A DNA stretch of 64,000 nucleotides. Source: an uncultured Polaribacter sp. (lineage in GTDB: Bacteria > Bacteroidota > Bacteroidia > Flavobacteriales > Flavobacteriaceae). Of this stretch, positions 50,084 to 63,594 are shown piece after piece. The notes under the pieces are model-generated. The model did not search any database, was not told where the DNA came from, and worked only from the letters and a program-made list of their open reading frames with translations. Each line of letters begins with the position of its first letter. Position 1 is the first letter of the stretch. The stretch lies in NCBI GenBank assembly GCA_964565055.1, contig CAZMDC010000011.1, positions 5,103 through 69,102 of the forward strand, written 5' to 3'. A program made the position numbers and the translations under genes.

Positions 50084-50173
50084 TTTAAAATTTTAGTTAG
50101 TTATATATAAGTAGCTTTAAGATTGATTATGTTACATTTTTCACAAAAATATATTCGTATCGACTTTTTTTTG

Positions 50174-50181
50174 TAGATTTG
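50174..50181 (+). promoter_or_regulatory. Bacteroidota-type -7 promoter box TAGATTTG (TAnnTTTG) for the MerR-family gene
   Basis: Exact match to the TAnnTTTG consensus, ending 21 nt upstream of the TTG start at 50203. A mirror box TATTTTTG lies on the - strand at 50143-50150 for the sigma gene. Confidence 0.35.
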
Positions 50182-50202
50182 TTTAACTTAAAATGGTGAA
50201 AA

Positions 50203-51096
50203 TTGAACAATATTAAACAGGATTTTACGATTAAAGACCTTGAAAATATTTCAGGTATAAAAGCGCATACCATTAGAATTTGGGAAAAAAGGTATAATTT
50301 ATTACAACCAAAAAGAACTGAAACAAATATAAGGTATTACTCACAAGAAAATTTAACGAAGCTTTTAAACATAGCACTATTAAACAAAAACAGCTTTAAA
50401 ATTTCTAAAATTGCAGCCATGTCAGATGATGATATCATATCAAAATCTAGAGAATTGGCCTTTAGTGTTGCTGCAAATGATGAGGCAATTAACTCATTTA
50501 AAGTTGCTATGTTTCAATTTGATAAAATATTGTTTAATAATACTTATTACAAATTGTTACATAAAAAAACCTTTAGAGAAATATTTAAAGATGTATTTAT
50601 TCCCTTTTTAGAGCATATAGGTTTACTTTGGCAAACAGAAACATTATTACCAGCTCATGAACATTTTATCTCTAATTTAATTTCTCAAAAAATTCAGCTT
50701 AACACAGAAAAATTACAATATAGTATCAATAATACTAACAAAACTTATGTATTATTTTTACCTGAAAATGAAATTCATGAACTAGGTTTGTTATATTTAA
50801 ATTACGAATTAGTTTTAAGAGGTTTTCATACCATATATTTAGGTCAAAGTTTACCTTTAAACAATCTTAATTATTTTTTAGAAGGTAATAGAGAAATTTG
50901 CTTTATAACTTCATTAACTATTCAACCTTATGATGATAAAATTGAGGATTATTTTAAAGAAATCTCTGAAGTAATGTTAAATACTAAAAATAATTTTATT
51001 GCTACAGGTAGAAAAGTTAGTAAAATAAATCATCTTGAATTCCCAGAGAACATTAAACTATATGATTCTATTCCAGATTTGTTAAAAGTGTTATAA
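50203..51096 (+). CDS. MerR-family transcriptional regulator with a cobalamin-binding-like C-terminal domain (CarH/LitR-like)
   Basis: MerR HTH (FTIKDLENISGIKAHTIRIWEKRYNLLQPKRTETNIRYYS). The C-terminal half carries ExHxxG (ENEIHELG), then LGQSLP 20 aa later, as in B12-binding Rossmann domains. It heads the crt cluster. Confidence 0.75.
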   Translation: MNNIKQDFTIKDLENISGIKAHTIRIWEKRYNLLQPKRTETNIRYYSQENLTKLLNIALLNKNSFKISKIAAMSDDDIISKSRELAFSVAANDEAINSFKVAMFQFDKILFNNTYYKLLHKKTFREIFKDVFIPFLEHIGLLWQTETLLPAHEHFISNLISQKIQLNTEKLQYSINNTNKTYVLFLPENEIHELGLLYLNYELVLRGFHTIYLGQSLPLNNLNYFLEGNREICFITSLTIQPYDDKIEDYFKEISEVMLNTKNNFIATGRKVSKINHLEFPENIKLYDSIPDLLKVL

Positions 51097-51133
51097 AATT
51101 TTAAAACAATAAATAAAATGTTTAATAAATAAA

Positions 51134-51141
51134 TATATTTG
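51134..51141 (+). promoter_or_regulatory. Bacteroidota-type -7 box TATATTTG upstream of crtI, inside an inverted repeat
   Basis: Exact TAnnTTTG match, ending 17 nt before the crtI ATG. It is flanked by TGTTTAA (51119-51125) and TTAAACA (51142-51148). Confidence 0.35.
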
Positions 51142-51158
51142 TTAAACAAATCAACCTA

Positions 51159-52625
51159 ATGAGTAAAAATATATATATAATTGGTTCTGGCTTTTCTTCT
51201 TTAGCAGCTTCATGTTATTTAGCAAAAGAAGGATATACTGTTACTGTTTTAGAAAAAAACAACACACTTGGTGGTAGAGCTAGGCAATATAAAAAAGTTG
51301 GTTTTACCTTTGATCTAGGACCTTCTTGGTATTGGATGCCAGATGTATTTGAACGCTTTTTTGCAGATTTTGGAAAAAAACCTTCAGATTATTATACATT
51401 AGACAAACTAAGTCCAGGTTACGAAGTTTATTTTGGCGAAAATGATTCTATAAAAATTTCTGATAAATTAAGTGAAATTTATGATTTGTTTGAAAAAGAA
51501 GAAAAAGGAAGCTCAAAGCATTTAAAATCTTTTTTAGATTCTGCTAAAGCAAATTATGATACAGCAATTAAAGATTTAGTTTATAAACCTGGAGTATCTC
51601 CATTAGAGCTTGTTAATACAACAACTATAGCAAGAGTTACGCAATTTTTTTCTACAATTAGAAAACAAGTTCGAAAGAATATTAAAAACCAAAAATTAAT
51701 TCAAATTTTAGAGTTTCCTGTATTATTTTTAGGGGCAAAGCCTAGCAATACTCCAGCTTTCTATAACTTTATGAATTATGCCGATTTTGGTTTAGGAACT
51801 TGGCATCCAAGAGGAGGGATGTATAAAGTTATTGAAGGTATGGTTTCTTTAGCTACATCTTTAGGGGTTCATTTTCAGGTAGATGCTAATGTTGAAAAAA
51901 TTGTAACAGATGCAAATAATTCTGTAACAGGTTTAGTTGTAAATAGAGAAGAAATCAAAACAAATTTAGTTTTAAGTGGAGCTGATTATCATCATACAGA
52001 AACACTATTAGATGAAAATTTGAGGCAATATTCAGAGAAATATTGGAGTAAGAAAACCTTTGCACCATCATCTTTATTATTTTACGTAGGTTTTGATAAG
52101 AAAATAGAGAATGCAAGTCATCATACTTTGTTTTTCGATACAGATTTCGATCAACATGCAGAAGAAATTTATGACAATCCTAAATGGCCAACAGCTCCTT
52201 TATTTTATGCAAATTTTACTTCTATGACAGATAAAACATCTGCACCTGAAGGTAAGGAAGCTGGTTTCTTTTTAATACCATTAGCTCCAGGAATTGAAGA
52301 TACAGAGGAATTAAGAGAAACTTATTTTAATAAAATTATTAATAGATTTGAGAAATTAACAAATCAAGAAGTCAGAAAAAATGTTATATTTAAAAAATCT
52401 TTTTGTGTAAAAGATTTTGAAGAGGAATACAATTCTTACAAAGGCAATGCATATGGTATGGCAAATACGTTATTTCAAACTGCTTTTTTAAGACCAAAAA
52501 TTAAAAGTGGTAAAGTAAACAATTTGTACTTTACAGGGCAATTAACTGTTCCTGGTCCTGGAGTACCACCAGCTTTAATTTCTGGTAAAATAGCATCAGA
52601 TTTAATTAAAAAAAATCAACAATAG
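51159..52625 (+). CDS. crtI: Phytoene desaturase
   Basis: FAD/NAD dinucleotide fold (IIGSGFSSLAASCYLAKEGYTVTVLEKNNTLGGRA) and the C-terminal CrtI signature (YFTGQLTVPGPGVPPALISG). Confidence 0.93.
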   Translation: MSKNIYIIGSGFSSLAASCYLAKEGYTVTVLEKNNTLGGRARQYKKVGFTFDLGPSWYWMPDVFERFFADFGKKPSDYYTLDKLSPGYEVYFGENDSIKISDKLSEIYDLFEKEEKGSSKHLKSFLDSAKANYDTAIKDLVYKPGVSPLELVNTTTIARVTQFFSTIRKQVRKNIKNQKLIQILEFPVLFLGAKPSNTPAFYNFMNYADFGLGTWHPRGGMYKVIEGMVSLATSLGVHFQVDANVEKIVTDANNSVTGLVVNREEIKTNLVLSGADYHHTETLLDENLRQYSEKYWSKKTFAPSSLLFYVGFDKKIENASHHTLFFDTDFDQHAEEIYDNPKWPTAPLFYANFTSMTDKTSAPEGKEAGFFLIPLAPGIEDTEELRETYFNKIINRFEKLTNQEVRKNVIFKKSFCVKDFEEEYNSYKGNAYGMANTLFQTAFLRPKIKSGKVNNLYFTGQLTVPGPGVPPALISGKIASDLIKKNQQ

Positions 52626-52626
52626 T

Positions 52627-53469
52627 ATGAAAGAATTATTTGATAGTGTTTCTAATGACTGTAGCAAGTTAGTTACAAAAAGTTACAGTACTTCTTTTTC
52701 TTTGGCTGTAAATATGTTGTCTCCTAAAATTAGAGCAGATATCTATAATATTTACGGCTTTGTTCGCTTCGCAGATGAAATTGTAGATACTTTTCACGAT
52801 TATGATAAAGAGGAATTGATGAGTCATTTTGAGAATGATTATCAACTTTCAAAAAAACAAGGTATAAGTTTAAACCCTATTTTAAATTCATTTCAACATA
52901 CAATTAAGAAATATAAAATACCAGAAGAAATGGTACAGTCTTTCTTAAAAAGTATGAAAGCAGATTTATATAAAACTGAATACGAAACAAAAGAAGAATA
53001 TGATGAATACATTTACGGTTCTGCAGATGTAGTTGGCTTAATGTGTTTAAAAGTTTTTGTAAATGGTGATGAAGCAAAATACAATGAACTTAAAGATGCT
53101 GCAATGCGTTTGGGTTCAGCTTTTCAAAAAGTGAATTTTTTAAGAGATTTAAAAGACGATTTTGAAACTTTAAATAGATCTTATTTTCCAAATATTGATT
53201 TAGGACAACTAGATGCAGCATCAAAACAATTAATTATCGATGAAATTGAAGCAGATTTTGAATATGCATATCATAATGGAATTTTAAAACTACCTGTAGA
53301 AGCTAAATTTGGTGTGTATACAGCATACAGATACTACAGAAAATTACTAAAAAAATTAAATAAAGTACCTTCAACTAAAATAATGGATACAAGAATTAGA
53401 ATTTCTAATCCTATGAAAATAAATCTTTTAGCAAGAAGTTACGTAAAATATAAATTGAATATTATTTAA
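52627..53469 (+). CDS. crtB: Phytoene synthase
   Basis: Squalene/phytoene synthase motifs YGFVRFADEIVD and GSAFQKVNFLRDLKDD. Confidence 0.92.
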   Translation: MKELFDSVSNDCSKLVTKSYSTSFSLAVNMLSPKIRADIYNIYGFVRFADEIVDTFHDYDKEELMSHFENDYQLSKKQGISLNPILNSFQHTIKKYKIPEEMVQSFLKSMKADLYKTEYETKEEYDEYIYGSADVVGLMCLKVFVNGDEAKYNELKDAAMRLGSAFQKVNFLRDLKDDFETLNRSYFPNIDLGQLDAASKQLIIDEIEADFEYAYHNGILKLPVEAKFGVYTAYRYYRKLLKKLNKVPSTKIMDTRIRISNPMKINLLARSYVKYKLNII

Positions 53470-53915
53470 TGGAATTCGCATTAATTACCTTAGGTGTTTT
53501 TTTATTGATGGAAGGTGTAACTTGGTGTACACATAAGTATGTAATGCATGGTTTTGGTTGGTATTTGCATGAAGATCATCACCAACCAAAGTATGATGGT
53601 TTCGAAAAAAATGATGCTTTTTTTGTTGTTTTTGCAATACCTAGCATGTCTCTTTTTTATTTTGGTACGTATACTGAACATACCTATTTGTTTTTTATAG
53701 GTTTGGGTATTTTGTGCTATGGAATAGCTTATTTTTTAGTACACGATGTTTTAATTCACCAACGTTTTAAATGGTTTAAAAATACAAATAATTGGTATTT
53801 AAAAGGATTAAGGAAAGCACATAAAATTCACCATAAAAACATGGGAAAAGAAGATAGCCAATGTTTTGGAATGTTGTTTGTTCCTTTAAAATACTTTCAG
53901 CAATATAAAAAATAA
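53469..53915 (+). CDS. crtZ: Beta-carotene 3-hydroxylase
   Basis: 148 aa with four histidine boxes (HKYVMH, HEDHH, HDVLIH, HKIHH). The start overlaps the crtB stop (TAATG). Confidence 0.9.
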   Translation: MEFALITLGVFLLMEGVTWCTHKYVMHGFGWYLHEDHHQPKYDGFEKNDAFFVVFAIPSMSLFYFGTYTEHTYLFFIGLGILCYGIAYFLVHDVLIHQRFKWFKNTNNWYLKGLRKAHKIHHKNMGKEDSQCFGMLFVPLKYFQQYKK

Positions 53916-53952
53916 CTAGTTTTACTTACCTTAAATTTTAACTCATTTCTAA

Positions 53953-55101
53953 TTGAAATCATCCAAAACAAATTACGATTTTATAATTGTTGGTGGTGGT
54001 GCATCTGGTTTAATGATGGCTTACAGAATGAGTATGGATTCTTATTTTGATGATAAATCAATCTTAATTTTAGATAAAGAAAAAAAATCTTCTAACGATA
54101 GAACTTGGTGTTATTGGCAAAACAATGATGATGAATGGCAAGATGTTGTTCATAAATCATGGCAAAGTATTATTTTTAAAAGTGATTTGTATTCTGCTAA
54201 AAAAAATATTACTCCTTACCAATATAAAATGATACTGAGCAAAGATTTTTATGATAAAATCTGGAATCATTTAGAAAAACAATCCAATATAAATTTTAAA
54301 AAGACTGTTGTAGAAAATATAACACAACTAGAAGAAACTGCAGAAGTTATAACTAAAGAAGAAACATTTATATCTAAAACAGTTTTTAATAGTATTTTAT
54401 TCTCGAAAGAATATCAAAATCAGTTAAAATATCCATATTTACAACAGCATTTTGTAGGCTTTTTTATAAAAACAAAAACAGATGTTTTTGACGATTCTAC
54501 TGCAACTTTTATGGATTTTTCTGTTGCTCAAAAAGGAAACACGCGTTTTATGTATGTGCTACCTTATGCTAAAAATGAAGCTTTATTTGAATACACCTTG
54601 TTTTCTCAAGATTTGTTAGCTTATGATGAATATAAAAGAGAAATTGAGAAATATTTAGCTGATAAGAATATTAACGATTACGAAATTACAGCAAAAGAAC
54701 AAGGCTCAATACCAATGACGAGTTTTAAATTTTGGAAAAATAACTCAAAAAATATAATACATATTGGTACTGCAGGTGGTTGGAGCAAAGCAAGTACAGG
54801 TTTTACGTTTAAAAATACTACAAAAAAAACTGCTGAATTAGTTTCGTATGTTAAGCAAAATAAACCTTTAAAAAAGTTTCATAAAATTGATAAGTATTGG
54901 CTTTATGATTTATTATTATTAGATATACTTTCTGAAAAAAATCATTTAGGAGCTTCAATTTTTGCAAAGTTGTTTCAAAAAAATAAAACAAATAAAATAT
55001 TAAAATTTTTAGACGAAGAAACAACGTTTGTTGAAGAAGTTACTATTTTTTCTAAAATGCAGATAGGCTTATTTTCCAAAGCGCTCATAAAAAGAGTATA
55101 G
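53953..55101 (+). CDS. crtY: Lycopene beta-cyclase
   Basis: N-terminal FAD fold DFIIVGGGASGL, ~380 aa, in crt cluster context. TTG start. Confidence 0.85.
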   Translation: MKSSKTNYDFIIVGGGASGLMMAYRMSMDSYFDDKSILILDKEKKSSNDRTWCYWQNNDDEWQDVVHKSWQSIIFKSDLYSAKKNITPYQYKMILSKDFYDKIWNHLEKQSNINFKKTVVENITQLEETAEVITKEETFISKTVFNSILFSKEYQNQLKYPYLQQHFVGFFIKTKTDVFDDSTATFMDFSVAQKGNTRFMYVLPYAKNEALFEYTLFSQDLLAYDEYKREIEKYLADKNINDYEITAKEQGSIPMTSFKFWKNNSKNIIHIGTAGGWSKASTGFTFKNTTKKTAELVSYVKQNKPLKKFHKIDKYWLYDLLLLDILSEKNHLGASIFAKLFQKNKTNKILKFLDEETTFVEEVTIFSKMQIGLFSKALIKRV

Positions 55102-55201: not shown

Positions 55202-55987
55202 ATGAAAAACATAAAAATTACATTACTCCTCTTAGTTTTTTTCTTCTTTTCTTGTGACAATATTTTTGAATATACTGTTTATGAAGCAGGTGTTGAAGAA
55301 GAGCAAAAAAATACTACTGCTAAAAACCTAGAACTTTTAGAAAATGTAGTTAACACTTCGAGTAATTTTAAATTCGCATTCCTTTCAGACTCACATTATT
55401 TTTACGATGAGCTAAGAGCTGTTGTAGAAGATATTAATAAAAATGATGAAATTTTATTTGTAGTTTTTGGTGGTGATATTACTGAGCAAGCATTACTTAA
55501 AGAGTATGAAATTTTTTATAATATAATTTCAAACCTAGAAAAACCTTACTTAACAGTAATTGGAAATCACGATTATAACTCAAATGGAAATTTAATTTAT
55601 TCAAGAATGTTTGGTGATTACAATTATACGTTTGAATTTGCTAACAACAAATTTATTTTGTTTGATGATATTGTTTGGGAAAGTAAAAAAACACCAGATT
55701 TTGCTTGGTTAGAAACAGAATTACAAAACAACACTTCATTTGATAACGTTTTTGTCTTTGCTCATATTCCTCCTTTTGGAGATCAATTTACAACTGAACT
55801 TAAAGAAAGATACGAAGGTTTAATGACGCAATATAATGTGCCTTTATCACTTCATGGTCATACACACAGTTACAAGTACAATCAAGGTGCTGTAAGTTAT
55901 TTTACAGTTCCATCTTTAAAGGAAATGGCATATGGCATTGTAGCTGTAGAAAACGACACATTTACAGTTGAATTAATAGAACTATAA
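55202..55987 (+). CDS. Secreted/lipoprotein metallophosphoesterase
   Basis: Calcineurin-like motifs DSH (FLSDSHY), GDITE, GNHDY, HIPP and GHTHS. The signal peptide has a Cys (FFFSC). Confidence 0.85.
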   Translation: MKNIKITLLLLVFFFFSCDNIFEYTVYEAGVEEEQKNTTAKNLELLENVVNTSSNFKFAFLSDSHYFYDELRAVVEDINKNDEILFVVFGGDITEQALLKEYEIFYNIISNLEKPYLTVIGNHDYNSNGNLIYSRMFGDYNYTFEFANNKFILFDDIVWESKKTPDFAWLETELQNNTSFDNVFVFAHIPPFGDQFTTELKERYEGLMTQYNVPLSLHGHTHSYKYNQGAVSYFTVPSLKEMAYGIVAVENDTFTVELIEL

Positions 55988-55992
55988 GTATT

Positions 55993-56589
55993 TTGAAAAT
56001 AAAAGAGCTCTTTATCACTATATGTGTATTGTTTATTTCTATAAATTCAATTGCACAAGAATTAGAATTAAAAAATAAAAAATCTTGGTATGTCCCAGAT
56101 TATGCTTCTGTACAACTAGCAGGAAACATTGGTTTATTTTCAGTTGGTGCTGGTTACGAAATATTTGATGATGTTTGGTATGCTGAGTTGCTCTATGGTT
56201 ATGCACCTAGATCTATAACAGAAGCTGAATCTAATCATTTAATTACTATAAAAAATACATTTCCAATTTTTACAAAAGAATTGCGTAATTCTTTCTCAAT
56301 ATCACCAATTGCAGGTTTGGCAATTACTTACGATGCTGGTAATAATACTTTTACTTCTTTACCAGGTCAATTTCCTAAGGGGTACTATATTTCTAATGCA
56401 ATACACTTAACCATTTTTGGAGGGTTTAAAGTGCATAAAGATTTTAAAAATGATAAAATTTTTAAAGGAATAGATATGTATTATGAACTAGGTACTGTAG
56501 AATCTTACTTATGGTATGCTATTACTTCTAGTGAGTTTTCTTTGAGTGATGCTTTTAGTTCTGCTATTGGAGTAAATATTTACTTTTAA
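55993..56589 (+). CDS. Hypothetical small outer-membrane beta-barrel-like protein
   Basis: Signal peptide (SINSIAQE), alternating aromatic/Gly beta-strand pattern and a C-terminal GVNIYF. It starts 5 nt after the phosphoesterase gene. TTG start. Confidence 0.45.
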   Translation: MKIKELFITICVLFISINSIAQELELKNKKSWYVPDYASVQLAGNIGLFSVGAGYEIFDDVWYAELLYGYAPRSITEAESNHLITIKNTFPIFTKELRNSFSISPIAGLAITYDAGNNTFTSLPGQFPKGYYISNAIHLTIFGGFKVHKDFKNDKIFKGIDMYYELGTVESYLWYAITSSEFSLSDAFSSAIGVNIYF

Positions 56590-56715
56590 ACTATTATCTT
56601 GTTTTTTACTTTTTTTAGTTGGATTTTTCTTTGGATGATTATCTCAAGAAATTCTCTATAAATAATAGTAATTATACACTTTTCTTTATTTAAAATACTC
56701 TAAGCATAAAGAAAT

Positions 56716-56745
56716 ACAATTCAGCTTTAAAAAATTACAGTTCAG
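56716..56745 (+). promoter_or_regulatory. Putative LytTR response-regulator binding site: two 9-bp direct repeats with a 12-bp spacer
   Basis: ACAATTCAG (56716-56724), then 12 nt, then ACAGTTCAG (56737-56745). The second repeat fits the AgrA-type LytTR consensus [TA][AC][CA]GTTN[AG][TG] exactly and the first has one mismatch. The site lies 72-101 nt upstream of the first gene of the LytTR-containing operon. Confidence 0.55.
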
Positions 56746-56816
56746 TATACTTTGTTTTTAAAAACTTGATTTGCAGTGCATCTTTGTACCATAATTAATC
56801 AATAAACAATAGTATT

Positions 56817-57230
56817 ATGAAAATTTTAGTAACACTTTTAGTAACAGCAGCTTTATTTTTATCAACAACAATAACAGCTCAAACAAAAACAATAACAGTA
56901 ACAATTGAAAACATTACTTCAGACAAAGGTAAGGTAGGGTATGCTTTATATAATAAAGATAACTTTATGAAAAAACCAATCATGGGAAAAGAGTCTACAA
57001 TTAAAAATGGAAAAACAACTGTAGTTTTCGAAAATATTTTACCAGGCGAATATGCAATTACTTGTTACCATGATAAAAATAATAATGATAGAATGGATTT
57101 TGCAGCAAATGGTATGCCTTTAGAAGATTATGGTGCTTCTAACAATAATATGAGTTTTGGTCCTCCAAATTATAATGATGCAAAGTTTGTAGTTGCTGAT
57201 AAAAATGTATCTTTAAATATCAAATTTTAG
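56817..57230 (+). CDS. DUF2141-like secreted beta-sandwich protein
   Basis: Signal peptide, then ITVTIENITSDKGKVGYALYNKDNF...DKNNNDRMDFAANGMPLEDYGASNN, which is characteristic of DUF2141 (from memory). Confidence 0.6.
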   Translation: MKILVTLLVTAALFLSTTITAQTKTITVTIENITSDKGKVGYALYNKDNFMKKPIMGKESTIKNGKTTVVFENILPGEYAITCYHDKNNNDRMDFAANGMPLEDYGASNNNMSFGPPNYNDAKFVVADKNVSLNIKF

Positions 57231-57248
57231 AAAATAGCAGTTAAAATT

Positions 57249-58610
57249 ATGAATACAAAAAGTAGATTATTAAGTAGCGATGTTAAAGAAGGTATCATAA
57301 TAAGTTTAAAAATAACATTAATTTTTACTGTCTTATTTACTTTACTTAATCAAAACTTTTCTTTAATAGACATAAGTTACACGTTCCTTATATCTGCTAT
57401 GTATTCATTTGGTTTAGGTTTTGCTCAAGGTATAATTAATGATTTTTTAAGCAAAAAATGGTCTTGGGTTACAGAAACAAATACAAGAGTTTGGGTAGGA
57501 ATTATTTCTACAGTTTTGTATACTATACCTATAGTTTTGCTAATAAATTATGTTAGTTATATTTTAATTTCAAATAACAATCCAGAACAATTTTTTAGTC
57601 AAGATTTTCTTTTAATTCATACATTTTATATTGTAATTTCATTTGGAGTTTCTGCTTTTTTACACGCTAGAAGTTTTATGATTGCTTGGAAAAACTCTGT
57701 AAAACAAGAAAGTACAAAGCAACAAATAGTAGCTAAAACAGAAACTGCAAAATTTGAATCTTTAAAAAATCAACTAGATCCACATTTTTTATTTAATAGT
57801 TTAAATGTGTTAACAAGTTTAATTGGTGAAAACCCAAATCAGGCAGAAAAATTTACAACTAAATTATCTAAAGTATATAGATATGTTTTAGAGCAAAGAA
57901 ATAAAGACTTAGTACCTATTTCTGAAGAATTAAATTTCGCAAAAATTTATATGCAATTATTATCTATGCGATTTGAAGATGCTATACAATTTAACATTCC
58001 AGATTCAGTATCAGATAGTGAACTTAAAATGGTGCCACTTTCTTTACAATTATTATTAGAAAATGCAGTAAAACACAACGTAGTTTCATCAACTAGACCA
58101 TTAACAATAGCTATTTACGAAGAAAACAATCATTTAATTATAGAAAACAATGTCAACCCAAAAGAAGCTATTGGGAAAAGCACCAAAGTAGGTTTGCAGA
58201 ATATTGCAGATAGGTATGGTTTAATTACAAATAAACCTGTAAAAATAGAAAACAATAACACAACATTTAGAGTGAGTTTACCACTCTTATATAAAATGAA
58301 CAATATTATGTACACTAACGATTTAGAAAATAGCAAATATGTTAAGGCAGTAGAAAGAGTAGAAAAATTAAAAGAATTTTATCAAAATTTAGTTTCTTAC
58401 TGTTTAGTAATTCCATTTTTAATATTCATCAATTTAAAATTTTCACCAGGTTTTTACTGGTTTTGGTTTCCAATATTTGGTTGGGGAATAGGTTTAGTTT
58501 TTCATTTTTTAGAAGTAAATAACTACAATATTTTCTTAGGAAGAAATTGGGAAGACAGAAAAATTAAAGAATTAATGGATAAAGAAAATCAAAATAAAAG
58601 ACTACGATAA
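57249..58610 (+). CDS. LytS/YehU-type sensor histidine kinase with a fused C-terminal 2TM module
   Basis: Four N-terminal TM helices, a His_kinase motif (LDPHFLFNSLN), an HATPase N-box (LLLENAVKHN) and a G-box (GLQNIADRY). The last ~95 aa (KYVKAVERVEKLKEFYQNL...FYWFWFPIFGWGIGLVFHFL...NWEDRKIKELM) repeat the module seen in the next four ORFs. Confidence 0.88.
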   Translation: MNTKSRLLSSDVKEGIIISLKITLIFTVLFTLLNQNFSLIDISYTFLISAMYSFGLGFAQGIINDFLSKKWSWVTETNTRVWVGIISTVLYTIPIVLLINYVSYILISNNNPEQFFSQDFLLIHTFYIVISFGVSAFLHARSFMIAWKNSVKQESTKQQIVAKTETAKFESLKNQLDPHFLFNSLNVLTSLIGENPNQAEKFTTKLSKVYRYVLEQRNKDLVPISEELNFAKIYMQLLSMRFEDAIQFNIPDSVSDSELKMVPLSLQLLLENAVKHNVVSSTRPLTIAIYEENNHLIIENNVNPKEAIGKSTKVGLQNIADRYGLITNKPVKIENNNTTFRVSLPLLYKMNNIMYTNDLENSKYVKAVERVEKLKEFYQNLVSYCLVIPFLIFINLKFSPGFYWFWFPIFGWGIGLVFHFLEVNNYNIFLGRNWEDRKIKELMDKENQNKRLR

Positions 58611-58933
58611 TGGAACACAAAATATCAGAAGAAAAAAAATATATTTTAGCTCGAAAACGAGTTGAGAAAATAAGTAAGTTTTACAAGCATTTAGCTGTTT
58701 ACCTTATTGTTAACTGTTTCTTAAGTGCAATTTTTATTGCAGGTGATATTAATGATGGAGATACTTTTAATGAGGCTTTTTTTAATTATCATAATTATAA
58801 AATATGGTTATTTTGGGGAATAGGAATATTTTTTCAAGCATTAAATACTTTCGGAATTCGTTTGTTTTTAAACAAAGATTGGGAAGAAAGAAAGATTCAA
58901 CAATATTTAGACGAACAGAATAATAAGTTTTAA
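58610..58933 (+). CDS. 2TM-module small membrane protein (long-loop class)
   Basis: KRVEKISKFYKHLAVY...GDINDGDTFNEAFFNY...WLFWGIGIFF...DWEERKIQQYL. The start overlaps the kinase stop (TAATG). Confidence 0.8.
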   Translation: MEHKISEEKKYILARKRVEKISKFYKHLAVYLIVNCFLSAIFIAGDINDGDTFNEAFFNYHNYKIWLFWGIGIFFQALNTFGIRLFLNKDWEERKIQQYLDEQNNKF

Positions 58934-58934
58934 A

Positions 58935-59222
58935 ATGAATTCAACTATTAATAATCAACAACGTTTTTTAAAAGCTCAAAAAGCTGTAAAAGAAATGAAA
59001 GGGTTTTACACGCATTTGTTTATTTATTGTATAATAATTCCTATTATTATTTATATAAACCTAACATATGTTCCTGAATTTCATTGGTTTTGGTTTTCTC
59101 TTTTAGGCTGGGGTATGGGTTTGTTTTTTCATTGGCTTAATGTTTTTGGGTTTAATTTATTAGGTTTTGGAAAACGATGGGAAGAAAAAAAGATTCAAGA
59201 ATTTATGAATAAAAATCAATAA
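58935..59222 (+). CDS. 2TM-module small membrane protein (short-loop class)
   Basis: KAVKEMKGFYTHLFIY...INLTYVPEFHWFWFSLLGWGMGLFFHWLNVFGF...RWEEKKIQEFM. 1-nt gap to the upstream gene. Confidence 0.8.
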   Translation: MNSTINNQQRFLKAQKAVKEMKGFYTHLFIYCIIIPIIIYINLTYVPEFHWFWFSLLGWGMGLFFHWLNVFGFNLLGFGKRWEEKKIQEFMNKNQ

Positions 59223-59228
59223 TTAAAA

Positions 59229-59804
59229 ATGGAAGATATTTTAAACTTTTTGGCAGAAAAAAAAATAAAAGATATTAAAGGTTTTTACACACATCTATTT
59301 GCTACTTTTTTGATATTACCTTTTATTATATTTATTAATCTACAAACAGTTCCTCAATTCGAGTGGTATTGGTATGCAATAATAGCTTGGTTTTTAGGAC
59401 TAATAGTACATTGGGTATCTGTTTTTACTTTTTCTAATCTTGGAGCAAAACAAAATTGGGAAAATCAAAAAATTTTTGACTCAAAGCATAATAAAATCAA
59501 TTTAGAAAAGAAGCCTGTTGATGACGAATATATCCAAGAGAAAAGTTATTTAAAAGCCAAAAAAGAAGCTCAAGAAATAAAAGGTTTTTATGTTCATTTA
59601 TTTGTGCATCTATTTTCATTCCCATTAATTGTGTTTGTAAATTTAAAATTTGTACCCGAATTTCATTTTTTTTGGTTTGCTTTGGGAGGTATGATTATCG
59701 CTCTATTTTTTCATTGGTTAGGAGTTTTTGGGTTTAATATCTTAGGCTTTGGAAAAGAATGGGAAAATAGAAAAAGAGAAGAAATAATTAAAAAATATAA
59801 ATAA
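59229..59804 (+). CDS. Double 2TM-module membrane protein (two short-loop copies in one ORF)
   Basis: The N-terminal copy is KDIKGFYTHLF...INLQTVPQFEWYWYAIIAWFLGLIVHW...NWENQKI. The C-terminal copy is QEIKGFYVHLF...VNLKFVPEFHFFWFALGG...FFHWLGVFGFN...EWENRKREE. Confidence 0.8.
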   Translation: MEDILNFLAEKKIKDIKGFYTHLFATFLILPFIIFINLQTVPQFEWYWYAIIAWFLGLIVHWVSVFTFSNLGAKQNWENQKIFDSKHNKINLEKKPVDDEYIQEKSYLKAKKEAQEIKGFYVHLFVHLFSFPLIVFVNLKFVPEFHFFWFALGGMIIALFFHWLGVFGFNILGFGKEWENRKREEIIKKYK

Positions 59805-59805
59805 A

Positions 59806-60153
59806 ATGGAACAAGATTTTACACAACAACAAAACTATATAAGAGCAAAAAAAAGAGTAAAAGATATTAAAGGATTTTATGTTCATTTTACTGTATATAT
59901 CATTATAAATATATTTATAAGTGGTGTAATTATTTATGGCTTAATGTCTAGTGGAGACTCGTTTTTAGACGCAATCCAGAATTTTGGTACAATTTCTACT
60001 TGGATTTTTTGGGGTATAGGAATAATTTTTCATTGGCTAGGAGTTTTTGGGTTTAAGTCCATAGGATTTGGAAAAGATTGGGAAGAAAGAAAAATTAGAG
60101 AAATGATGGATAAAGAAGACGAAATGAGTAATAAGTTGAATAGAAGAAATTAA
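59806..60153 (+). CDS. 2TM-module small membrane protein (long-loop class)
   Basis: KRVKDIKGFYVHFTVY...SSGDSFLDAIQNF...WIFWGIGIIFHWLGVFGF...DWEERKIREMM. 1-nt gap to the upstream gene. Confidence 0.8.
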   Translation: MEQDFTQQQNYIRAKKRVKDIKGFYVHFTVYIIINIFISGVIIYGLMSSGDSFLDAIQNFGTISTWIFWGIGIIFHWLGVFGFKSIGFGKDWEERKIREMMDKEDEMSNKLNRRN

Positions 60154-60157
60154 AATA

Positions 60158-60613
60158 ATGTTTTCTACTTTAGGTTACTTTCATTTGGTGTTTTCTGTTA
60201 TTGCAATGATTACAGGTTTAATAGTAGTTTTTAATACAAAAGGCACTAAGTTTCATAAAAATATAGGCTATATTTATGTTATAAATATGTTATTACTAAA
60301 TATAAGTTCTTTTTTTATTTCAAACTTTAATGGGTTTAGTATTTTTCATTTTTTTGCAATTATTAGCTTAATAACTATTGTAGGAGGAATGTATCCTGTA
60401 TTAAAAAAATCAAAAAACTGGATCTATGCTCATTACTATTTTATGGCTTGGTCTGTAGTTGGGCTTTATTGTGCTTTTTGGTCAGAAGTAGGTACACGTT
60501 TTGTGAAAAATATGCAAGATTTCTGGTGGGCAGTTGCAATTGCAACTTTTCTAACTGCTTTTTTAGGCGCTTATTTTATCAATAAAAATGCAAAAAAATT
60601 AACAAGTAAATAA
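60158..60613 (+). CDS. 4-TM membrane protein of unknown function (DUF2306-like?)
   Basis: 151 aa with four hydrophobic helices and no soluble domain. It is wedged between the 2TM genes and the response regulator (gaps of 4 and 1 nt). Confidence 0.55.
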   Translation: MFSTLGYFHLVFSVIAMITGLIVVFNTKGTKFHKNIGYIYVINMLLLNISSFFISNFNGFSIFHFFAIISLITIVGGMYPVLKKSKNWIYAHYYFMAWSVVGLYCAFWSEVGTRFVKNMQDFWWAVAIATFLTAFLGAYFINKNAKKLTSK

Positions 60614-60614
60614 T

Positions 60615-61370
60615 ATGAATGTTATAATTATTGAAGACGAAAAACCTGCTGCAAGAAGGTTAAATAGGATGTTAGGAGCTTTAGATATTAAAGTACAACA
60701 AATGTTACATTCTGTAGAAGAATCTTTAAATTGGTTACAAAATAATGAACATCCAGATTTAATATTTTTAGATATCCAATTGTCTGATGGTTTGTCTTTT
60801 GAAATTTTTGAAGAAATTGAAGTAAAATCGGCCATAATTTTTACAACTGCTTATGATGAATATGCTCTTAAAGCTTTTAAATTAAATAGTATAGATTATT
60901 TACTAAAACCAATAGATGATGATGAATTAGCTGCTGCTGTGCATCAATTTAAAGAGCAACAACCTTCGCAATCTGATGTGCAAGTAAACTTAGATGATAT
61001 TCGAAAATTGTTGGTAAATCCTGTAGATCGTAAATTTAAAAAACGATTGTCTATAAAAGTTGGACAGCACATTAAAATTGTTCATATAAATGAAATTGAA
61101 TGTTTTTATAGTGAAAATAAAGCCACCTATATTCATACTTCAGAAAATAGAAATTACTTATTGGATAATTCATTAGAGAATTGGCAAGAACAACTTGATC
61201 CTGAGCAGTTTTTTAGAGTAAATAGAACTTTTATTGTTCATATTAATGCTATAAAAGATATTGTAGCATACTCAAACTCTCGTTTAAAATTGATTTTACA
61301 TTCTTACAACGAACAAGAAATTATTGTAAGTAGAGAGCGTGTAAAAGATTTTAAAAATTGGATTGATTAA
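60615..61370 (+). CDS. LytR/AlgR-family response regulator (REC + LytTR DNA-binding domain)
   Basis: REC domain (IIIEDEKPAARRL...LIFLDIQLSDG...TTAYDEYALKAF) and a LytTR domain (FFRVNRTFIVHINAIKDI). Confidence 0.92.
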   Translation: MNVIIIEDEKPAARRLNRMLGALDIKVQQMLHSVEESLNWLQNNEHPDLIFLDIQLSDGLSFEIFEEIEVKSAIIFTTAYDEYALKAFKLNSIDYLLKPIDDDELAAAVHQFKEQQPSQSDVQVNLDDIRKLLVNPVDRKFKKRLSIKVGQHIKIVHINEIECFYSENKATYIHTSENRNYLLDNSLENWQEQLDPEQFFRVNRTFIVHINAIKDIVAYSNSRLKLILHSYNEQEIIVSRERVKDFKNWID

Positions 61371-61417
61371 TATTCTTAACAATTATTTGTAAACTAATTT
61401 TTTTACTTGATTATAAT

Positions 61418-61457
61418 TCATAATATTGCATATTGTATACAATATGCAATATTATGA
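61418..61457. promoter_or_regulatory. 40-bp perfect palindrome containing a GntR-type core (TTGTATACAA); probable autoregulatory operator
   Basis: TCATAATATTGCATATTGTA|TACAATATGCAATATTATGA, read directly. It overlaps the probable ATG (61454) of the GntR gene. Confidence 0.6.
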
Positions 61458-62101
61458 TTGAAAGACACTCACTCAAAACTCAAATTATAGACACAATTTG
61501 GGAATTAATACTTAAGGGAGAAATTAAACCAAATGAACCTTTAAGGGAAATGCATTTGGCTAAACAGTTAAATATTAGCAGAACACCTTTAAGAGAAGCT
61601 TTACAGAAATTAGAATGGGAAAATATTGTAAAATCAGAACCTGGTAAAGGGTTTCGTCTATCAGGATTTTCTGTACAAGAAGTGAAAGAAATTTATCCTC
61701 TTAGGGCTAAGTTAGAATCTTATGCTTTAGAATTATCTGGAATACCTTCAGAAAAAAACATCCAAAAATTAATTCAATTAAACAATAAAATGTTAGCTGC
61801 AACAACTCCAGAATCTATTATTGAACTAGATGAACAATGGCATAATTTATTGATAGCAAACTGTAAAAACGGAAAGTTATTAGATATCATCCATATGTTA
61901 CATAAACAGTCTAAACGTTATGAATATGCTTACATGAATATGAAAAATAGAGTAGAAGTTTCTATTGATCAGCATAAACAAATAATAAATTATTTACAGG
62001 AAGGTAATATTACTAAAGCTGCAAAACTTTTTGCCGAAAATAATGCTGTAGGTATAAATACTTTGGTGGATTGGTTAGAGTCTAAAAACGATAAAATTTA
62101 A
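61433..62101 (+). CDS. GntR-family (FadR-like) transcriptional regulator; true start probably ATG 61454 (MIERHSLKT...)
   Basis: Winged HTH (LREMHLAKQLNISRTPLREALQKLEWENIVKSEPGKGFRL) and an all-helical FCD-like C-terminal domain. Confidence 0.88.
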   Translation: MYTICNIMIERHSLKTQIIDTIWELILKGEIKPNEPLREMHLAKQLNISRTPLREALQKLEWENIVKSEPGKGFRLSGFSVQEVKEIYPLRAKLESYALELSGIPSEKNIQKLIQLNNKMLAATTPESIIELDEQWHNLLIANCKNGKLLDIIHMLHKQSKRYEYAYMNMKNRVEVSIDQHKQIINYLQEGNITKAAKLFAENNAVGINTLVDWLESKNDKI

Positions 62102-62109
62102 TTTATAAT

Positions 62110-63594
62110 ATGAAAAAAATAATAGTTGCTTTAACAACTTTAATCATCTTAAGTTGCCAAAACTCAAACGAAAATAGAAAGCCAGAATTTAAAAAAGTTA
62201 TCAACTTAATTGATAAATATGCTAAAGAAACCCTTCATAAAAACAATATAAATACAATTGCATTGTCTGTTTATAAAAATGATAATTATTATCAGAATTA
62301 TTATGGAGAAATAGATAAAAATGTTGGTAATACTCCAAATGATAGCACATTGTTTGAAATTGCTTCTATTTCAAAAGTTTTTTTAGGATCTCTGGTAGCA
62401 AAAGCAGTTTTAGAAAATAAAATTACACTAAATGATGATATAAGAAAGTATTTAAAAGGCGATTATTCAAACTTAGAATACAAAGGAACACCAATAGTAA
62501 TAAAAAATTTATTGACTCATACACTTGGTTTTGAAACCAAAAATCCTAAAGGATTACAAGAGTTTAACAAAAAAGTTAGAAGTGGTTATTATGAAAAAAA
62601 TGATGAAGCCTATGACTATAATATCGATGATTTTTTACAAGAATTAAAATCTAGCAAGTTAGACAAAAAACCAGGTGACTTTTATGAATACAATTCAGTT
62701 GGGCCAGAATTATTGGCTTATATATTAGAACAAGTTTATGATGAGTCATATGAATCATTATTAAATAAGTTTTTTACAAGGTTAAACATGAAAAATACCT
62801 ATTTAAATGACTATTCTAAAATTAGAAATCATATTGCAAACAGTTATAAAGGTGATACACTTATGCCTTTAGAAAGAAACTCTTTGCTTGGTGGAACAGC
62901 AGGTATAGTAACAACTTTACCAGATTTATCTAAGTTTATGAAATTTCAACTAGATAATAATGATTCACTAATAGAAGAGTCTACCAAAAAAATATTTAAT
63001 AATAATGATGGAGATCAACTAGGATATCTTTGGGAAGTTGGAGAGGCAGAAGAAGAAGGTTTTTATTATACTAAAACTGGAACTTCTGGTGGTGTTCAAA
63101 GTGTAATTTTAATCTGTCCTGATAGTAATTATGGATTAATTTTAATAGTAAATAATACTTCAGAAAAAGCTTTTAATGATTGGGTTAACCTTTATTATAG
63201 TATAGAAGAAGAATTAATAAAATATCCAAAAGTGAATTTAGTTGCTCTTTTAGAAAAAGATTTACTCACTAACACAAAAGAATCAATTATAGAATATAAA
63301 AAACTCATTAGTAAAGACAATTTGTATTATACAAACGCAACAGATTTAAATAATTTAGGTTATCAATTACTAAAAGATGAGAAAAACAATGAAGCTATAG
63401 AAATATTTAAATTGTTAGTTTCAGAATTTTCAAATAATTTTAATGCATATGATAGTTTAGGTGAAGCATATTTTAGAAATAAAGATTATAAAAATGCTAT
63501 TATAAATTATAAAAAATCTTTAGAATTAAATTCTAATAATACAAATGCCAAAGAGTATATCCAGAAAATAAATGAAATAGAAAGTAAAAGCTAA
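62110..63594 (+). CDS. Serine hydrolase (beta-lactamase family) with a C-terminal TPR domain; probable lipoprotein
   Basis: Lipobox-like LILSC, S-x-K motif (ASISKVF), YxN-like YNSVG, and C-terminal TPR repeats (AYDSLGEAYFRNKDYKNAIINYKKSLELNSNN). Confidence 0.8.
   Translation: MKKIIVALTTLIILSCQNSNENRKPEFKKVINLIDKYAKETLHKNNINTIALSVYKNDNYYQNYYGEIDKNVGNTPNDSTLFEIASISKVFLGSLVAKAVLENKITLNDDIRKYLKGDYSNLEYKGTPIVIKNLLTHTLGFETKNPKGLQEFNKKVRSGYYEKNDEAYDYNIDDFLQELKSSKLDKKPGDFYEYNSVGPELLAYILEQVYDESYESLLNKFFTRLNMKNTYLNDYSKIRNHIANSYKGDTLMPLERNSLLGGTAGIVTTLPDLSKFMKFQLDNNDSLIEESTKKIFNNNDGDQLGYLWEVGEAEEEGFYYTKTGTSGGVQSVILICPDSNYGLILIVNNTSEKAFNDWVNLYYSIEEELIKYPKVNLVALLEKDLLTNTKESIIEYKKLISKDNLYYTNATDLNNLGYQLLKDEKNNEAIEIFKLLVSEFSNNFNAYDSLGEAYFRNKDYKNAIINYKKSLELNSNNTNAKEYIQKINEIESKS

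What the first reader, a model, noticed from the sequence alone, without database searches (positions are those of the whole stretch)
56817..61370. LytS-type kinase / LytTR regulator operon carrying six copies of an uncharacterised '2TM' membrane module
Nine genes are packed with gaps of -1 to 18 nt. In order they are a DUF2141-like secreted protein, a His_kinase-type sensor kinase, four small ORFs, a 4-TM protein and a LytTR response regulator. The last ~95 aa of the kinase and all four small ORFs (one holds two copies) are the same ~85-aa module. That module has a basic amphipathic helix (K-R/A-V-K-x-[IM]-K-G-F-Y-x-H-L), a two-helix hairpin rich in Trp/Phe/Gly (W[FI]FWG[IM]G[IL].FHW..VFGF) and a charged tail (WEE[RK]KI.E.M). 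Such a module is catalogued as a domain of unknown function, often near LytTR systems, and I know of no experimentally assigned role. In Firmicutes the paradigm LytSR system controls small holin/antiholin-like membrane proteins (LrgAB/CidAB). By analogy, these small two-TM proteins with charged tails could be membrane-active effectors. Alternatively, they could be co-sensors that hetero-oligomerise with the kinase's own 2TM tail. Either way this is a self-contained sensory-plus-membrane module of unknown function, and the least ordinary thing in the window.
Basis: partly seen in the sequence, partly recalled or inferred. Interest (0 to 1): 0.7.

Follow-up and report, generated by a model that had tools for sequence, protein, structure and literature searches.

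The report
Kinase operon with repeated two-helix modules
A marine flavobacterium carries a self-activating sensor-kinase/regulator operon in which the kinase and four small neighbouring proteins all contain the same uncharacterised two-helix membrane module, most likely acting as plug-in parts of the membrane sensor rather than as lysis proteins.

Summary
Window 56817-61370 (+) encodes DUF2141, a His_kinase (PF06580) kinase ending in a PF13239 '2TM' hairpin, four small genes carrying five more 2TM modules, DUF2306 and a REC-LytTR regulator. Gaps are -1 to 18 nt.

The cluster is not a chance arrangement. All 80 related genome stretches I retrieved (Polaribacter, Tenacibaculum, Lutibacter, Flavobacterium, Kordia) carry it, with 1-5 free 2TM modules per locus. 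These modules fall into two old classes: A (short loop, like the kinase tail) and B/C (long periplasmic loop).

New here is a LytTR-type operator, ACAATTCAKC-N11-ACAGTTCRGT, in an exact 21-bp register, with its second repeat 46 nt upstream of a -7 TTTG box. It precedes the operon and is the only such site in the 64-kb window. Elsewhere the same box precedes TonB-receptor-like, DUF2141, TPR-like, DUF2807 and DUF2306 genes.

Some relatives have the 2TM modules fused to the kinase instead: kinase::2TM::2TM with no free copies, or 2TM::kinase. This favours co-sensor subunits of the kinase over holin-like effectors. No experimental work on the module was found.

Verdict: an uncharacterised variant of a known signalling type, of moderate interest.

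The parts
56716..56746 (+). Predicted LytTR operator. It has two direct repeats, ACAATTCAGC (56716-56725) and ACAGTTCAGT (56737-56746), in a 21-bp register.
   Evidence: Sequence. The same repeat pair with exactly 21-bp register is found in 69 of 80 loci. A PWM built from those sites scores 38.7 bits here, and this is the only hit of at least 8 bits in the 64-kb window.
56779..56786 (+). Bacteroidetes-type -7 promoter element (cAtcTTTG, compare TAnnTTTG). Its TTTG is at 56783-56786.
   Evidence: TTTG lies exactly 46 nt after the first base of repeat 2 in 64 of 69 loci, and in nearly all of 125 metagenome matches. That this is the promoter is inferred.
56817..57230 (+). DUF2141 secreted protein (137 aa, signal peptide). 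First gene of the operon and probable output.
   Evidence: PF09912 at E 7e-31. N-terminal hydrophobic segment at residues 1-21. It is the first gene after the operator in most non-Flavobacterium loci.
57249..58610 (+). Sensor kinase (453 aa). N-terminal helical membrane domain (four helices modelled before the H box), then a His_kinase dimerisation/phosphotransfer (DHp) region with H179, then a catalytic domain with an N box but NNxNPK in place of DxGxG, then a C-terminal 2TM hairpin (residues 366-444, class A).
58610..58933 (+). s1: free 2TM protein, class B (long periplasmic loop). Its start overlaps the kinase stop codon (ATAATG).
   Evidence: PF13239 at 2e-23; classification; overlap.
58935..59222 (+). 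s2: free 2TM protein, class A (short loop, like the kinase tail).
   Evidence: PF13239 at 8e-27. Orthologues are 54-75% identical in named Polaribacter species.
59229..59804 (+). s3: tandem double-2TM protein (191 aa).
   Evidence: Two PF13239 stretches. The double form is conserved as 187-202 aa proteins. AlphaFold2 model: pLDDT 83, each module being a long N-terminal helix running into TM1, then TM2, then a C-terminal helix.
59806..60153 (+). s4: free 2TM protein, class B (long loop).
   Evidence: PF13239 at 1e-22.
60158..60613 (+). DUF2306 membrane protein with four TM segments. An occasional passenger of the operon.
   Evidence: PF10067 at 5e-14. Present in only 2 of 80 genome loci besides the window. 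DUF2306-like genes stand alone behind the same operator in metagenome contigs L119 and L171 (the Pfam hit for L119 is below the curated cut-off).
60615..61370 (+). Response regulator, REC + LytTR, with the phospho-acceptor set E7/D8, D53, T77 and K98.

Best explanation
This is an autoregulated two-component system of the LytS-family-kinase / LytTR-regulator type, and its membrane sensor is modular.

The kinase is anchored by an N-terminal helical membrane domain. Unusually, it also carries a C-terminal 2TM hairpin after the catalytic domain, with both ends in the cytoplasm.

The four genes between the kinase and the regulator supply five more hairpins of two old classes: class A with a short loop, and class B with a roughly 20-residue periplasmic loop. 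I propose that these free hairpins pack against the kinase's own hairpin in the membrane, hairpin to hairpin. They would then act as co-sensor or modulator subunits that set the kinase/phosphatase balance.

The phosphorylated regulator binds two direct repeats (21-bp register) next to the promoter and activates the whole operon. The 2TM subunits are therefore also produced in response to signalling, which gives feedback.

The physiological outputs are envelope proteins. Here that is the secreted DUF2141 protein and DUF2306. In relatives it is a TonB-dependent-receptor-like protein, a roughly 210-aa TPR-like secreted protein and DUF2807 ('Toastrack') lipoproteins.

Shown: gene content, conservation, paralogue classes, fusion variants, and operator conservation and position. 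Inferred: physical 2TM-kinase contact, the direction of regulation, and the signal (probably a membrane or envelope state).
For: 1. Domains and tight packing.

2. Conservation. All 80 genome loci retrieved with an s2-orthologue profile contain kinase::2TM, and 70 of them also have the LytTR regulator on the retrieved stretch. Free 2TM modules number 1-5 and always lie between kinase and regulator. Sixty-two of the 70 complete loci have both a free class A and a free class B/C module.

3. Fusion variants:
- P0138 is kinase::2TM::2TM with no free 2TM gene, in an otherwise identical context of TBDR-like gene, 217-aa gene and regulator, with two operators.
- P0140 and P0141 have the same architecture.
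- P0253 is 2TM::His_kinase::HATPase_c with the 2TM hairpin as its only membrane segment, followed by a LytTR regulator.
- L088 has a split His_kinase gene followed by a 2TM gene.

4. The kinase stop codon overlaps the s1 start codon, which is compatible with coupled translation.

5. Operator:
- Exact 21-bp register in 69 of 80 loci.
- Fixed 46-nt distance to the -7 TTTG box in 64 of 69.
- A single site in the window.
- This geometry matches characterised LytTR autoregulatory promoters: 9-bp repeats, 12-bp spacer, about 10 bp upstream of the -35 element (PMC6193735).

6. Candidate regulon from a motif-only metagenome scan. The first gene after the box is TPR-like in 30 cases, DUF2141 in 24, TBDR-like in 24 and kinase::2TM in 6. 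DUF2807, DUF2306-like, CPBP-protease, thioredoxin-like and ABC-transporter genes also occur.

7. The regulator has an intact phospho-acceptor set, and the kinase has the H box and N box.
Against: - No direct evidence of 2TM-kinase contact.
- The catalytic domain lacks the DxGxG G1 box and gets no Pfam HATPase_c hit, so kinase activity is assumed, not shown.
- Because the 2TM genes sit in the autoregulated operon, they are formally also outputs.
- At least one 2TM gene (L089) has no kinase or LytTR neighbour, so the domain is not strictly tied to these systems.
- The 80 genome loci are the best of 515 matches and are mostly orthologous, so they overstate how universal the arrangement is.
- Box-preceded genes on metagenome contigs could belong to paralogous LytTR systems with a similar operator.
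Confidence: 0.55

Rival explanations
1. The free 2TM proteins are the effectors of the system. They would be small membrane-active proteins, either holin/antiholin-like or membrane-stabilising like LiaI or PspC, whose induction changes membrane integrity. The kinase tail would be only an extra membrane anchor.
For: - They are transcribed from the autoregulated promoter, so they rise when the system is on.
- Their shape is reminiscent of small stress or lysis proteins: a small two-TM hairpin with a basic amphipathic N-terminal helix and a charged C-terminal helix.
- Copy number expands and contracts between genera, as effector families often do.
Against: - No similarity to LrgA/LrgB/CidA or any PHROG holin, and no consistent weak Pfam relative. 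No fold match in the PDB.
- In some lineages the same modules are fused onto the kinase and no free copy remains, while the rest of the locus stays the same. That is hard to reconcile with an independent effector.
- 2TM can be the only membrane domain of a kinase.
- Other box-controlled genes are better output candidates.
Confidence: 0.2
2. The 2TM proteins, and the kinase tail, act on the regulator rather than the kinase. Their cytoplasmic helices would tether or sequester the LytTR regulator at the membrane. This resembles the membrane inhibitors of LytTR Regulatory Systems (HdrM, BrsM).
For: - Apart from one orphan gene (L089), every 2TM locus examined that extended far enough carries a LytTR-type regulator.
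- LytTR systems with membrane-protein inhibitors and autoregulatory direct repeats are documented (PMC6193735).
- The most conserved residues of the module are cytoplasmic: A-x-K-x-V, K-G-F-Y and W-E-E-R-K-I.
Against: - This regulator has a complete receiver domain and a cognate kinase, unlike LRS regulators.
- PF06580 kinases always pair with LytTR regulators, so the co-occurrence does not separate the two targets.
- The cis fusions are to the kinase, never to the regulator, in the architectures seen.
Confidence: 0.12
3. The extra 2TM copies are functionally redundant products of tandem duplication, so copy number has no specific meaning. One free copy, or only the kinase tail, would suffice.
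For: Copy number ranges from 1 to 5 free modules in otherwise equivalent loci. Seven of 70 complete loci have only one.
Against: - The paralogues are old (28-50% identity) and fall into classes kept across genera. Sixty-two of 70 loci keep both a class A and a class B/C copy.
- All copies retain the family's invariant residues.
- The tandem double-module protein is itself conserved.
Confidence: 0.1

Closest known systems
LytS/LytR-type two-component systems (S. aureus/B. subtilis LytSR, E. coli BtsSR and YpdAB)
   Same: PF06580 His_kinase phosphotransfer domain with the conserved His. REC+LytTR regulator; its best NCBIfam hits are LytR and BtsR, though below the curated cut-offs. Direct-repeat operator with LytTR geometry.
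   Different: - No 5TMR_LYT or GAF input domain.
- No lrgAB/cidAB-type or transporter target in the operon.
- A C-terminal 2TM hairpin after the catalytic domain, plus free 2TM paralogues.
- G1 box replaced by NNxNPK.
Intramembrane-sensing kinases with accessory membrane proteins (LiaFSR with LiaI/LiaF/LiaG; BceRS-BceAB)
   Same: Works like them in outline. The kinase has minimal extracytoplasmic loops. Small membrane proteins are encoded with the kinase and regulator. The operon is autoregulated. Candidate regulon members include DUF2807, which was unified with the LiaF and LiaG domains as 'Toastrack' (PMC11237479). BceS appears among the fold matches of the kinase model.
   Different: - Different kinase family (PF06580, not HisKA_3) and regulator family (LytTR, not NarL or OmpR).
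- The accessory proteins share a domain with the kinase itself, which is not the case for LiaF or BceAB.
- No PspA/LiaH homologue was seen.
LytTR Regulatory Systems (HdrRM, BrsRM of Streptococcus mutans)
   Same: A LytTR regulator encoded with membrane protein(s). Positive-feedback promoter with two direct repeats, 21-bp register, just upstream of the promoter (PMC6193735).
   Different: LRS regulators lack a receiver domain and have no kinase. Here a receiver domain with D53 and a cognate kinase are present. The membrane proteins are unrelated: DUF2154 and others versus PF13239.
Pfam PF13239 '2TM domain' / NCBI '2TM domain-containing protein'
   Same: All six modules are clear members. Databases already name the Polaribacter orthologues this way.
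   Different: The database entry is only a catalogue name. No paper in the searchable library mentions PF13239, and none treats this 2TM domain functionally.

Membership tests
Two-component system of the PF06580 kinase / LytTR regulator type | Kinase with a His_kinase (PF06580) phosphotransfer domain and a conserved phospho-accepting His | tested here: met
   PF06580 at E 1e-23, residues 167-245. The D-P-H179-F-L-F-N motif is invariant in 76 orthologues.
Two-component system of the PF06580 kinase / LytTR regulator type | ATP-binding catalytic domain (GHKL fold) with N, G1 (DxGxG) and G2 boxes | tested here: inconclusive
   - The N box LLLENAVKHN and the G2-like GxxxxVGLxNIxxRY are conserved.
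- G1 is NNxNPK, not DxGxG.
- No Pfam HATPase_c hit at E=10.
- The model matches the GanS kinase domain (6swk, E 6.5e-7) and many other histidine kinases.
- The same NN-type G1 occurs in a neighbouring non-2TM kinase in L053.
Two-component system of the PF06580 kinase / LytTR regulator type | Regulator with a receiver domain (acidic pocket, phospho-Asp, T, K) and a LytTR DNA-binding domain | tested here: met
   Response_reg at 1.6e-15 and LytTR at 2.5e-23. E7/D8, D53, T77 and K98 are present.
Two-component system of the PF06580 kinase / LytTR regulator type | Target promoters carry two roughly 9-bp direct repeats with a roughly 12-bp spacer just upstream of the promoter | tested here: met
   In silico only: with the reference geometry from PMC6193735. 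Binding was not tested.
Two-component system of the PF06580 kinase / LytTR regulator type | Autophosphorylation and phosphotransfer from the kinase to the regulator | not testable with these tools
   Needs biochemistry.
LytSR proper (controls lrgAB/cidABC) | LytS-type 5TMR_LYT membrane sensor domain | tested here: not met
   No PF07694 or other sensor-domain hit in the kinase, even at E=10.
LytSR proper (controls lrgAB/cidABC) | Holin/antiholin-like LrgA/LrgB/CidA targets | tested here: not met
   No LrgA or LrgB Pfam hit in any operon protein. No PHROG holin hit. No consistent weak Pfam hits for the modules.
Pfam PF13239 2TM domain | Match to the family profile above the gathering score | tested here: met
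   Scores of 80-103 bits against a cut-off of 24.8 for all five proteins, giving six modules.
LytTR Regulatory Systems (LRS) | LytTR regulator without a receiver domain or kinase, held inactive by a co-encoded membrane inhibitor | tested here: not met
   A receiver domain and a cognate kinase are present. An inhibitor role for the 2TM proteins was not tested.
Intramembrane-sensing kinase with accessory membrane partner (Lia/Bce-like logic) | Kinase without a sizeable extracytoplasmic domain, plus a co-encoded membrane protein required for sensing | tested here: inconclusive
   All predicted loops between TM helices of the kinase are short, and membrane partners are co-encoded. Whether they are required for sensing was not tested. 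This is an analogy of mechanism, not homology.

The most novel reading that the evidence does not exclude
The 2TM hairpin is a portable intramembrane input module for LytS-family kinases. It can be supplied in cis at the N terminus, in cis at the C terminus, or in trans as free subunits. Flavobacteria would then assemble a combinatorial sensor from class A and class B hairpins around the kinase tail, and the paralogue repertoire would tune what membrane or envelope state is read. The output would be a dedicated envelope regulon: a TonB-receptor-like protein, DUF2141, and TPR-like and Toastrack lipoproteins. A further speculative extension is a link to carotenoid or membrane status. It rests on the operon sitting next to the crt cluster here and in six other loci, and on DUF2141 lying next to crtG in Sphingomonadales.
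Probability: 0.25. Interest if true: 0.7.

Novelty: new variant of a known kind. Interest (0 to 1): 0.48.

Why it matters
LytTR-type two-component systems are numerous in Bacteroidota, yet essentially none has a known signal, accessory factor or regulon.

This locus is a tractable example. It has a defined operator, a short list of candidate target genes, and a natural experiment in which the same membrane hairpin is free in some genera and fused to the kinase in others.

If the free hairpins prove to be kinase subunits, that would add a new way of building a bacterial sensor. The kinase and its small-protein modulators would share one domain and assemble by like-with-like contacts. It would also give a first function to a Pfam family with thousands of members: 2,780 clusters at 50% identity had E <= 0.001.

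The practical relevance is modest. The genera concerned include fish pathogens (Tenacibaculum, Flavobacterium) and abundant marine polysaccharide degraders (Polaribacter).

Tried and rejected
- Holin/antiholin analogy. No Pfam LrgA/LrgB/CidA hit, no PHROG hit and no consistent weak Pfam relative for any module. Rejected as a homology claim.
- Fold search with the double-2TM model against the PDB. Nothing below E=2. A helical hairpin is too simple to be informative.
- Is the kinase's N-terminal membrane domain a pair of cryptic 2TM modules? hmmsearch gave only marginal hits over residues 94-150. hhalign gave 34% probability over 20 columns. Inconclusive, so not claimed.
- A short ATP lid as a peculiarity of this kinase. 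Rejected. A canonical relative (P0253) has an equally short G1-G2 spacing, and a neighbouring kinase without 2TM (L053) has the same NN-type G1. It is a class feature.
- P0212 (CarbopepD_reg + 2TM) as a new architecture. Its sequence reads as the N terminus of a TonB-receptor-like protein joined to a kinase C terminus. It is probably a deletion or an assembly chimera of adjacent genes, so it was not used.
- A locus search with the six-module alignment failed because there was no conserved 7-10-column stretch. It was repeated with s2 orthologues.
- Literature. No paper mentions PF13239. The '2TM domain-containing protein' hits are all the unrelated glycine-zipper 2TM/SlyB family.
- A Flavobacterium johnsoniae coevolution study found parallel mutations in an adjacent LytTR regulator and histidine kinase pair in all five coevolved lines (PMC10197871). 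I could not establish whether that pair is the 2TM type, so it is only a lead.
- Rfam found no RNA family in 55900-62200. The only terminator-like site lies inside the kinase gene and is within chance expectation.

Full report
**1. Observation**

The region 56817-61370 contains eight co-directional ORFs on the + strand. Gaps between them are 18, -1, 1, 6, 1, 4 and 1 nt. Pfam assigns them as follows:
- DUF2141, E 7e-31
- His_kinase PF06580 (1e-23) plus 2TM PF13239 (3e-27, residues 366-444) in the 453-aa kinase
- 2TM in each of the four small ORFs (1e-22 to 1e-30), with two stretches in the 191-aa s3
- DUF2306, 5e-14
- Response_reg plus LytTR in the last gene

The six modules are 28-50% identical to one another. 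All six copies are also visible at the DNA level. G+C content is about 26% throughout. The closest database proteins are from Polaribacter.

**2. Anatomy**

Each 2TM module has four parts in order:
- a basic N-terminal helix (A-x-K-[RK]-V-K-x-I-K-G-F-Y-x-H-L) that runs straight into TM1;
- a short loop;
- TM2, rich in Trp, Phe and Gly (W-F-W-F...G-W-G-x-G-L-x-F-H-W);
- a charged C-terminal helix (W-E-E-R-K-I).

Lys and Arg are confined to the two ends, so both ends are predicted to be cytoplasmic (direct reading). This fits the position of the module after the cytoplasmic catalytic domain of the kinase.

An AlphaFold2 model of the tandem protein s3 has mean pLDDT 83 and gives exactly this helix pattern twice.

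In the kinase model (pLDDT 73) four helices precede the H box. The H box has H179, and the N box LLLENAVKHN is conserved. The G1 box DxGxG is replaced by NNxNPK, and Pfam HATPase_c is not detected. The modelled core nevertheless matches the GanS kinase domain and many other histidine kinases. The same NN-type G1 box occurs in a neighbouring kinase without 2TM in L053, so it is a class feature of these flavobacterial kinases.

The regulator has the full phospho-acceptor set: E7/D8, D53, T77 and K98.

**3. Conservation**

A profile of s2 orthologues retrieved 80 genome loci from Polaribacter, Tenacibaculum, Pseudotenacibaculum, Lutibacter, Flavobacterium and Kordia. I annotated them with profiles built from the window's own proteins.
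- Every locus contains kinase::2TM followed by free 2TM genes.
- Where the retrieved stretch reaches far enough (70 loci), a REC-LytTR regulator follows.
- Free modules number 1 (7 loci), 2 (31), 3 (9), 4 (13) or 5 (10).

Clustering separates three groups:
- class A, short loop, which includes all kinase tails;
- class B, usually with a roughly 20-residue periplasmic loop;
- a smaller class C.

Sixty-two of the 70 complete loci keep both a free A and a free B/C module. In the window the order is tail A, s1 B, s2 A, s3 (one outlier module plus A), s4 B. The paralogues are therefore old and differentiated, not recent copies.

DUF2306 is an occasional insertion, found in 2 other loci. Other lineages have inserted a GT-C-like glycosyltransferase-type membrane protein, a thioredoxin-like protein or a TPR-LuxR protein at the same spot (sequence-level reading only).

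**4.

About 100 nt upstream of the DUF2141 start lie ACAATTCAGC (56716-56725) and ACAGTTCAGT (56737-56746).
- The same pair, with consensus TTACAATTCATCC-N8-ATACAGTTCGGTA, occurs upstream of the operon in 69 of 80 loci, always in a 21-bp register. Four of the remaining loci have no upstream sequence and the others have weaker versions.
- The first base of repeat 2 lies exactly 46 nt before a TTTG that fits the Bacteroidetes -7 element TAnnTTTG, in 64 of 69 loci.
- A PWM built from these sites finds one site in the whole 64-kb window, this one, at 38.7 bits. Nothing else reaches 8 bits.
- The geometry is that of characterised LytTR autoregulatory promoters: 9-bp repeats, 12-bp spacer, roughly 10 bp upstream of the -35 element (PMC6193735). 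From my own knowledge, the repeat resembles the AgrA and ComE half-site ACAGTTNAG.

In the 18 Flavobacterium loci a second box precedes an upstream gene of about 717 aa for a TonB-dependent-receptor-like protein (CarbopepD_reg_2 + Plug). In those loci the first operon gene is a TPR-like secreted protein of about 225 aa instead of DUF2141.

I then scanned metagenome contigs with the motif alone. This returned 125 matches, nearly all with TTTG or TTTA at +46. The first downstream gene was:

| First gene after the box | Matches |
|---|---|
| TPR-like protein | 30 |
| DUF2141 | 24 |
| TonB-receptor-like protein | 24 |
| kinase::2TM | 6 |
| no match to those profiles | 28 |
| none (contig end) | 8 |
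| fusions or partial matches | 5 |

The 28 with no profile match include recurrent DUF2807 lipoproteins, DUF2306-like membrane proteins, a CPBP protease, a thioredoxin-like protein and an ABC transporter. DUF2807 belongs to the 'Toastrack' group together with the LiaF and LiaG domains (PMC11237479). The candidate outputs are thus envelope proteins. Some of these sites could belong to paralogous LytTR systems with a similar operator.

**5. What the 2TM proteins do**

Three kinds of evidence favour a role as kinase subunits.

(i) Position. The free 2TM genes always lie between the kinase gene and the regulator gene, and the kinase stop codon overlaps the s1 start.

(ii) Shared domain. The kinase carries a class A module itself.

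(iii) Fusions.
- P0138, P0140 and P0141 are kinase::2TM::2TM.
- In the P0138 locus no free 2TM gene remains, while the TonB-receptor-like gene, the 217-aa gene, the regulator and both operators are as in Flavobacterium.
- P0253, from a G+C-rich contig, is 2TM::His_kinase::HATPase_c followed by a LytTR regulator, with the hairpin as the kinase's only membrane segment.
- L088 has the kinase and its 2TM part split into two genes.

The hairpin is therefore a kinase input or anchor module that evolution moves between cis and trans. On that basis I propose that the free copies assemble with the kinase tail and modulate signalling, and that their autoregulated expression provides feedback. This is inference. 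No interaction was computed or measured, and one orphan 2TM gene without kinase or regulator neighbours exists (L089).

**6. Rivals**

- The effector (holin-like or LiaI-like) reading cannot be excluded, because the genes are induced with the operon. It has no homology support and fits poorly with the fused variants.
- An LRS-like role, sequestering the regulator, is possible. The most conserved residues are cytoplasmic, but all fusions seen are to the kinase.
- Simple redundancy is contradicted by the retention of classes A and B.

**7. Comparison and novelty**

The locus is a member of the PF06580 / LytTR two-component class. It is not a LytSR orthologue, because it has no 5TMR_LYT domain and no lrgAB-type target. 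In outline it works like intramembrane-sensing systems with accessory membrane proteins (Lia, Bce). It shares promoter logic with LytTR Regulatory Systems but belongs to neither.

The 2TM family is catalogued: 2,780 clusters at 50% identity had E <= 0.001, and NCBI names the proteins '2TM domain-containing protein'. I found no functional study.

I rate the locus a new variant of a known kind, of moderate interest. The conserved operator, the two-class paralogue structure, the fusion series and the candidate regulon make it directly testable.

Noticed in passing
window 49589-55101: A complete carotenoid cluster lies just upstream of the operon: an ECF sigma factor (minus strand), a MerR/B12-binding regulator (CarH/LitR-like), then phytoene desaturase-like (Amino_oxidase), phytoene synthase (SQS_PSY), a 148-aa ORF without a Pfam hit, and lycopene cyclase at 53953-55101. 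Lycopene cyclase sits directly upstream of the DUF2141 gene in six other loci (L014, L028, L041, L043, L053, L081). DUF2141 is reported next to crtG in Sphingomonadales (PMC5989583). This may be synteny only, or a real link between DUF2141 and carotenoids.
   Followed up: partly
window 61418-61457: A perfect 40-bp palindrome (TCATAATATTGCATATTGTA / TACAATATGCAATATTATGA) lies between the regulator's stop codon and the GntR/FCD regulator gene. It overlaps that gene's listed TTG start at 61433. It is probably the GntR-family operator, and the true start is probably the downstream ATG.
   Followed up: no
window 58140-58220 (kinase residues about 296-325); also L053 12082-13512: Flavobacterial PF06580 kinases, with or without the 2TM tail, have NNxxPK/NNKxxKK in place of the DxGxG ATP-binding G1 box and escape the Pfam HATPase_c model. 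Whether they bind ATP normally is not known.
   Followed up: partly
L036 5524-7773, L051 5880-8118 and 16 further Flavobacterium loci; L086 1078-3284: A gene of about 717 aa for a TonB-dependent-receptor-like protein (CarbopepD_reg_2 + Plug), with its own copy of the LytTR-type operator, lies directly upstream of the 2TM operon throughout Flavobacterium. No homologue of it is present in the 64-kb window.
   Followed up: partly
L173, L179, L106, L142, L177, L182, L183, L184, L187 (metagenome contigs): The same operator and -7 box geometry precede DUF2807 ('Toastrack'-type) lipoprotein genes. In L173 and L179 a VanX-like D-Ala-D-Ala dipeptidase gene (Peptidase_M15) follows about 0.5 kb downstream.
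   Followed up: partly
window 55993-56589: A 198-aa ORF with a signal peptide, no Pfam hit and a C-terminal ...GVNIYF. It looks like a small outer-membrane beta-barrel. Together with a metallophosphoesterase gene (55202-55987) it separates the crt cluster from the operon. No homologue of either was found in the other 80 loci.
   Followed up: partly
L056 10972-12462, L078 11057-12547: In two Flavobacterium loci a 496-aa multi-pass membrane protein is inserted between the last 2TM gene and the regulator gene. By eye it resembles GT-C/ArnT-type glycosyltransferases. It was not checked against Pfam.
   Followed up: no
PMC10197871 (Flavobacterium johnsoniae FJOH_RS09515/RS09520): All five F. johnsoniae lines coevolved with Burkholderia thailandensis acquired mutations in one adjacent LytTR regulator / histidine kinase pair. 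I could not determine whether this pair is of the 2TM type.
   Followed up: no
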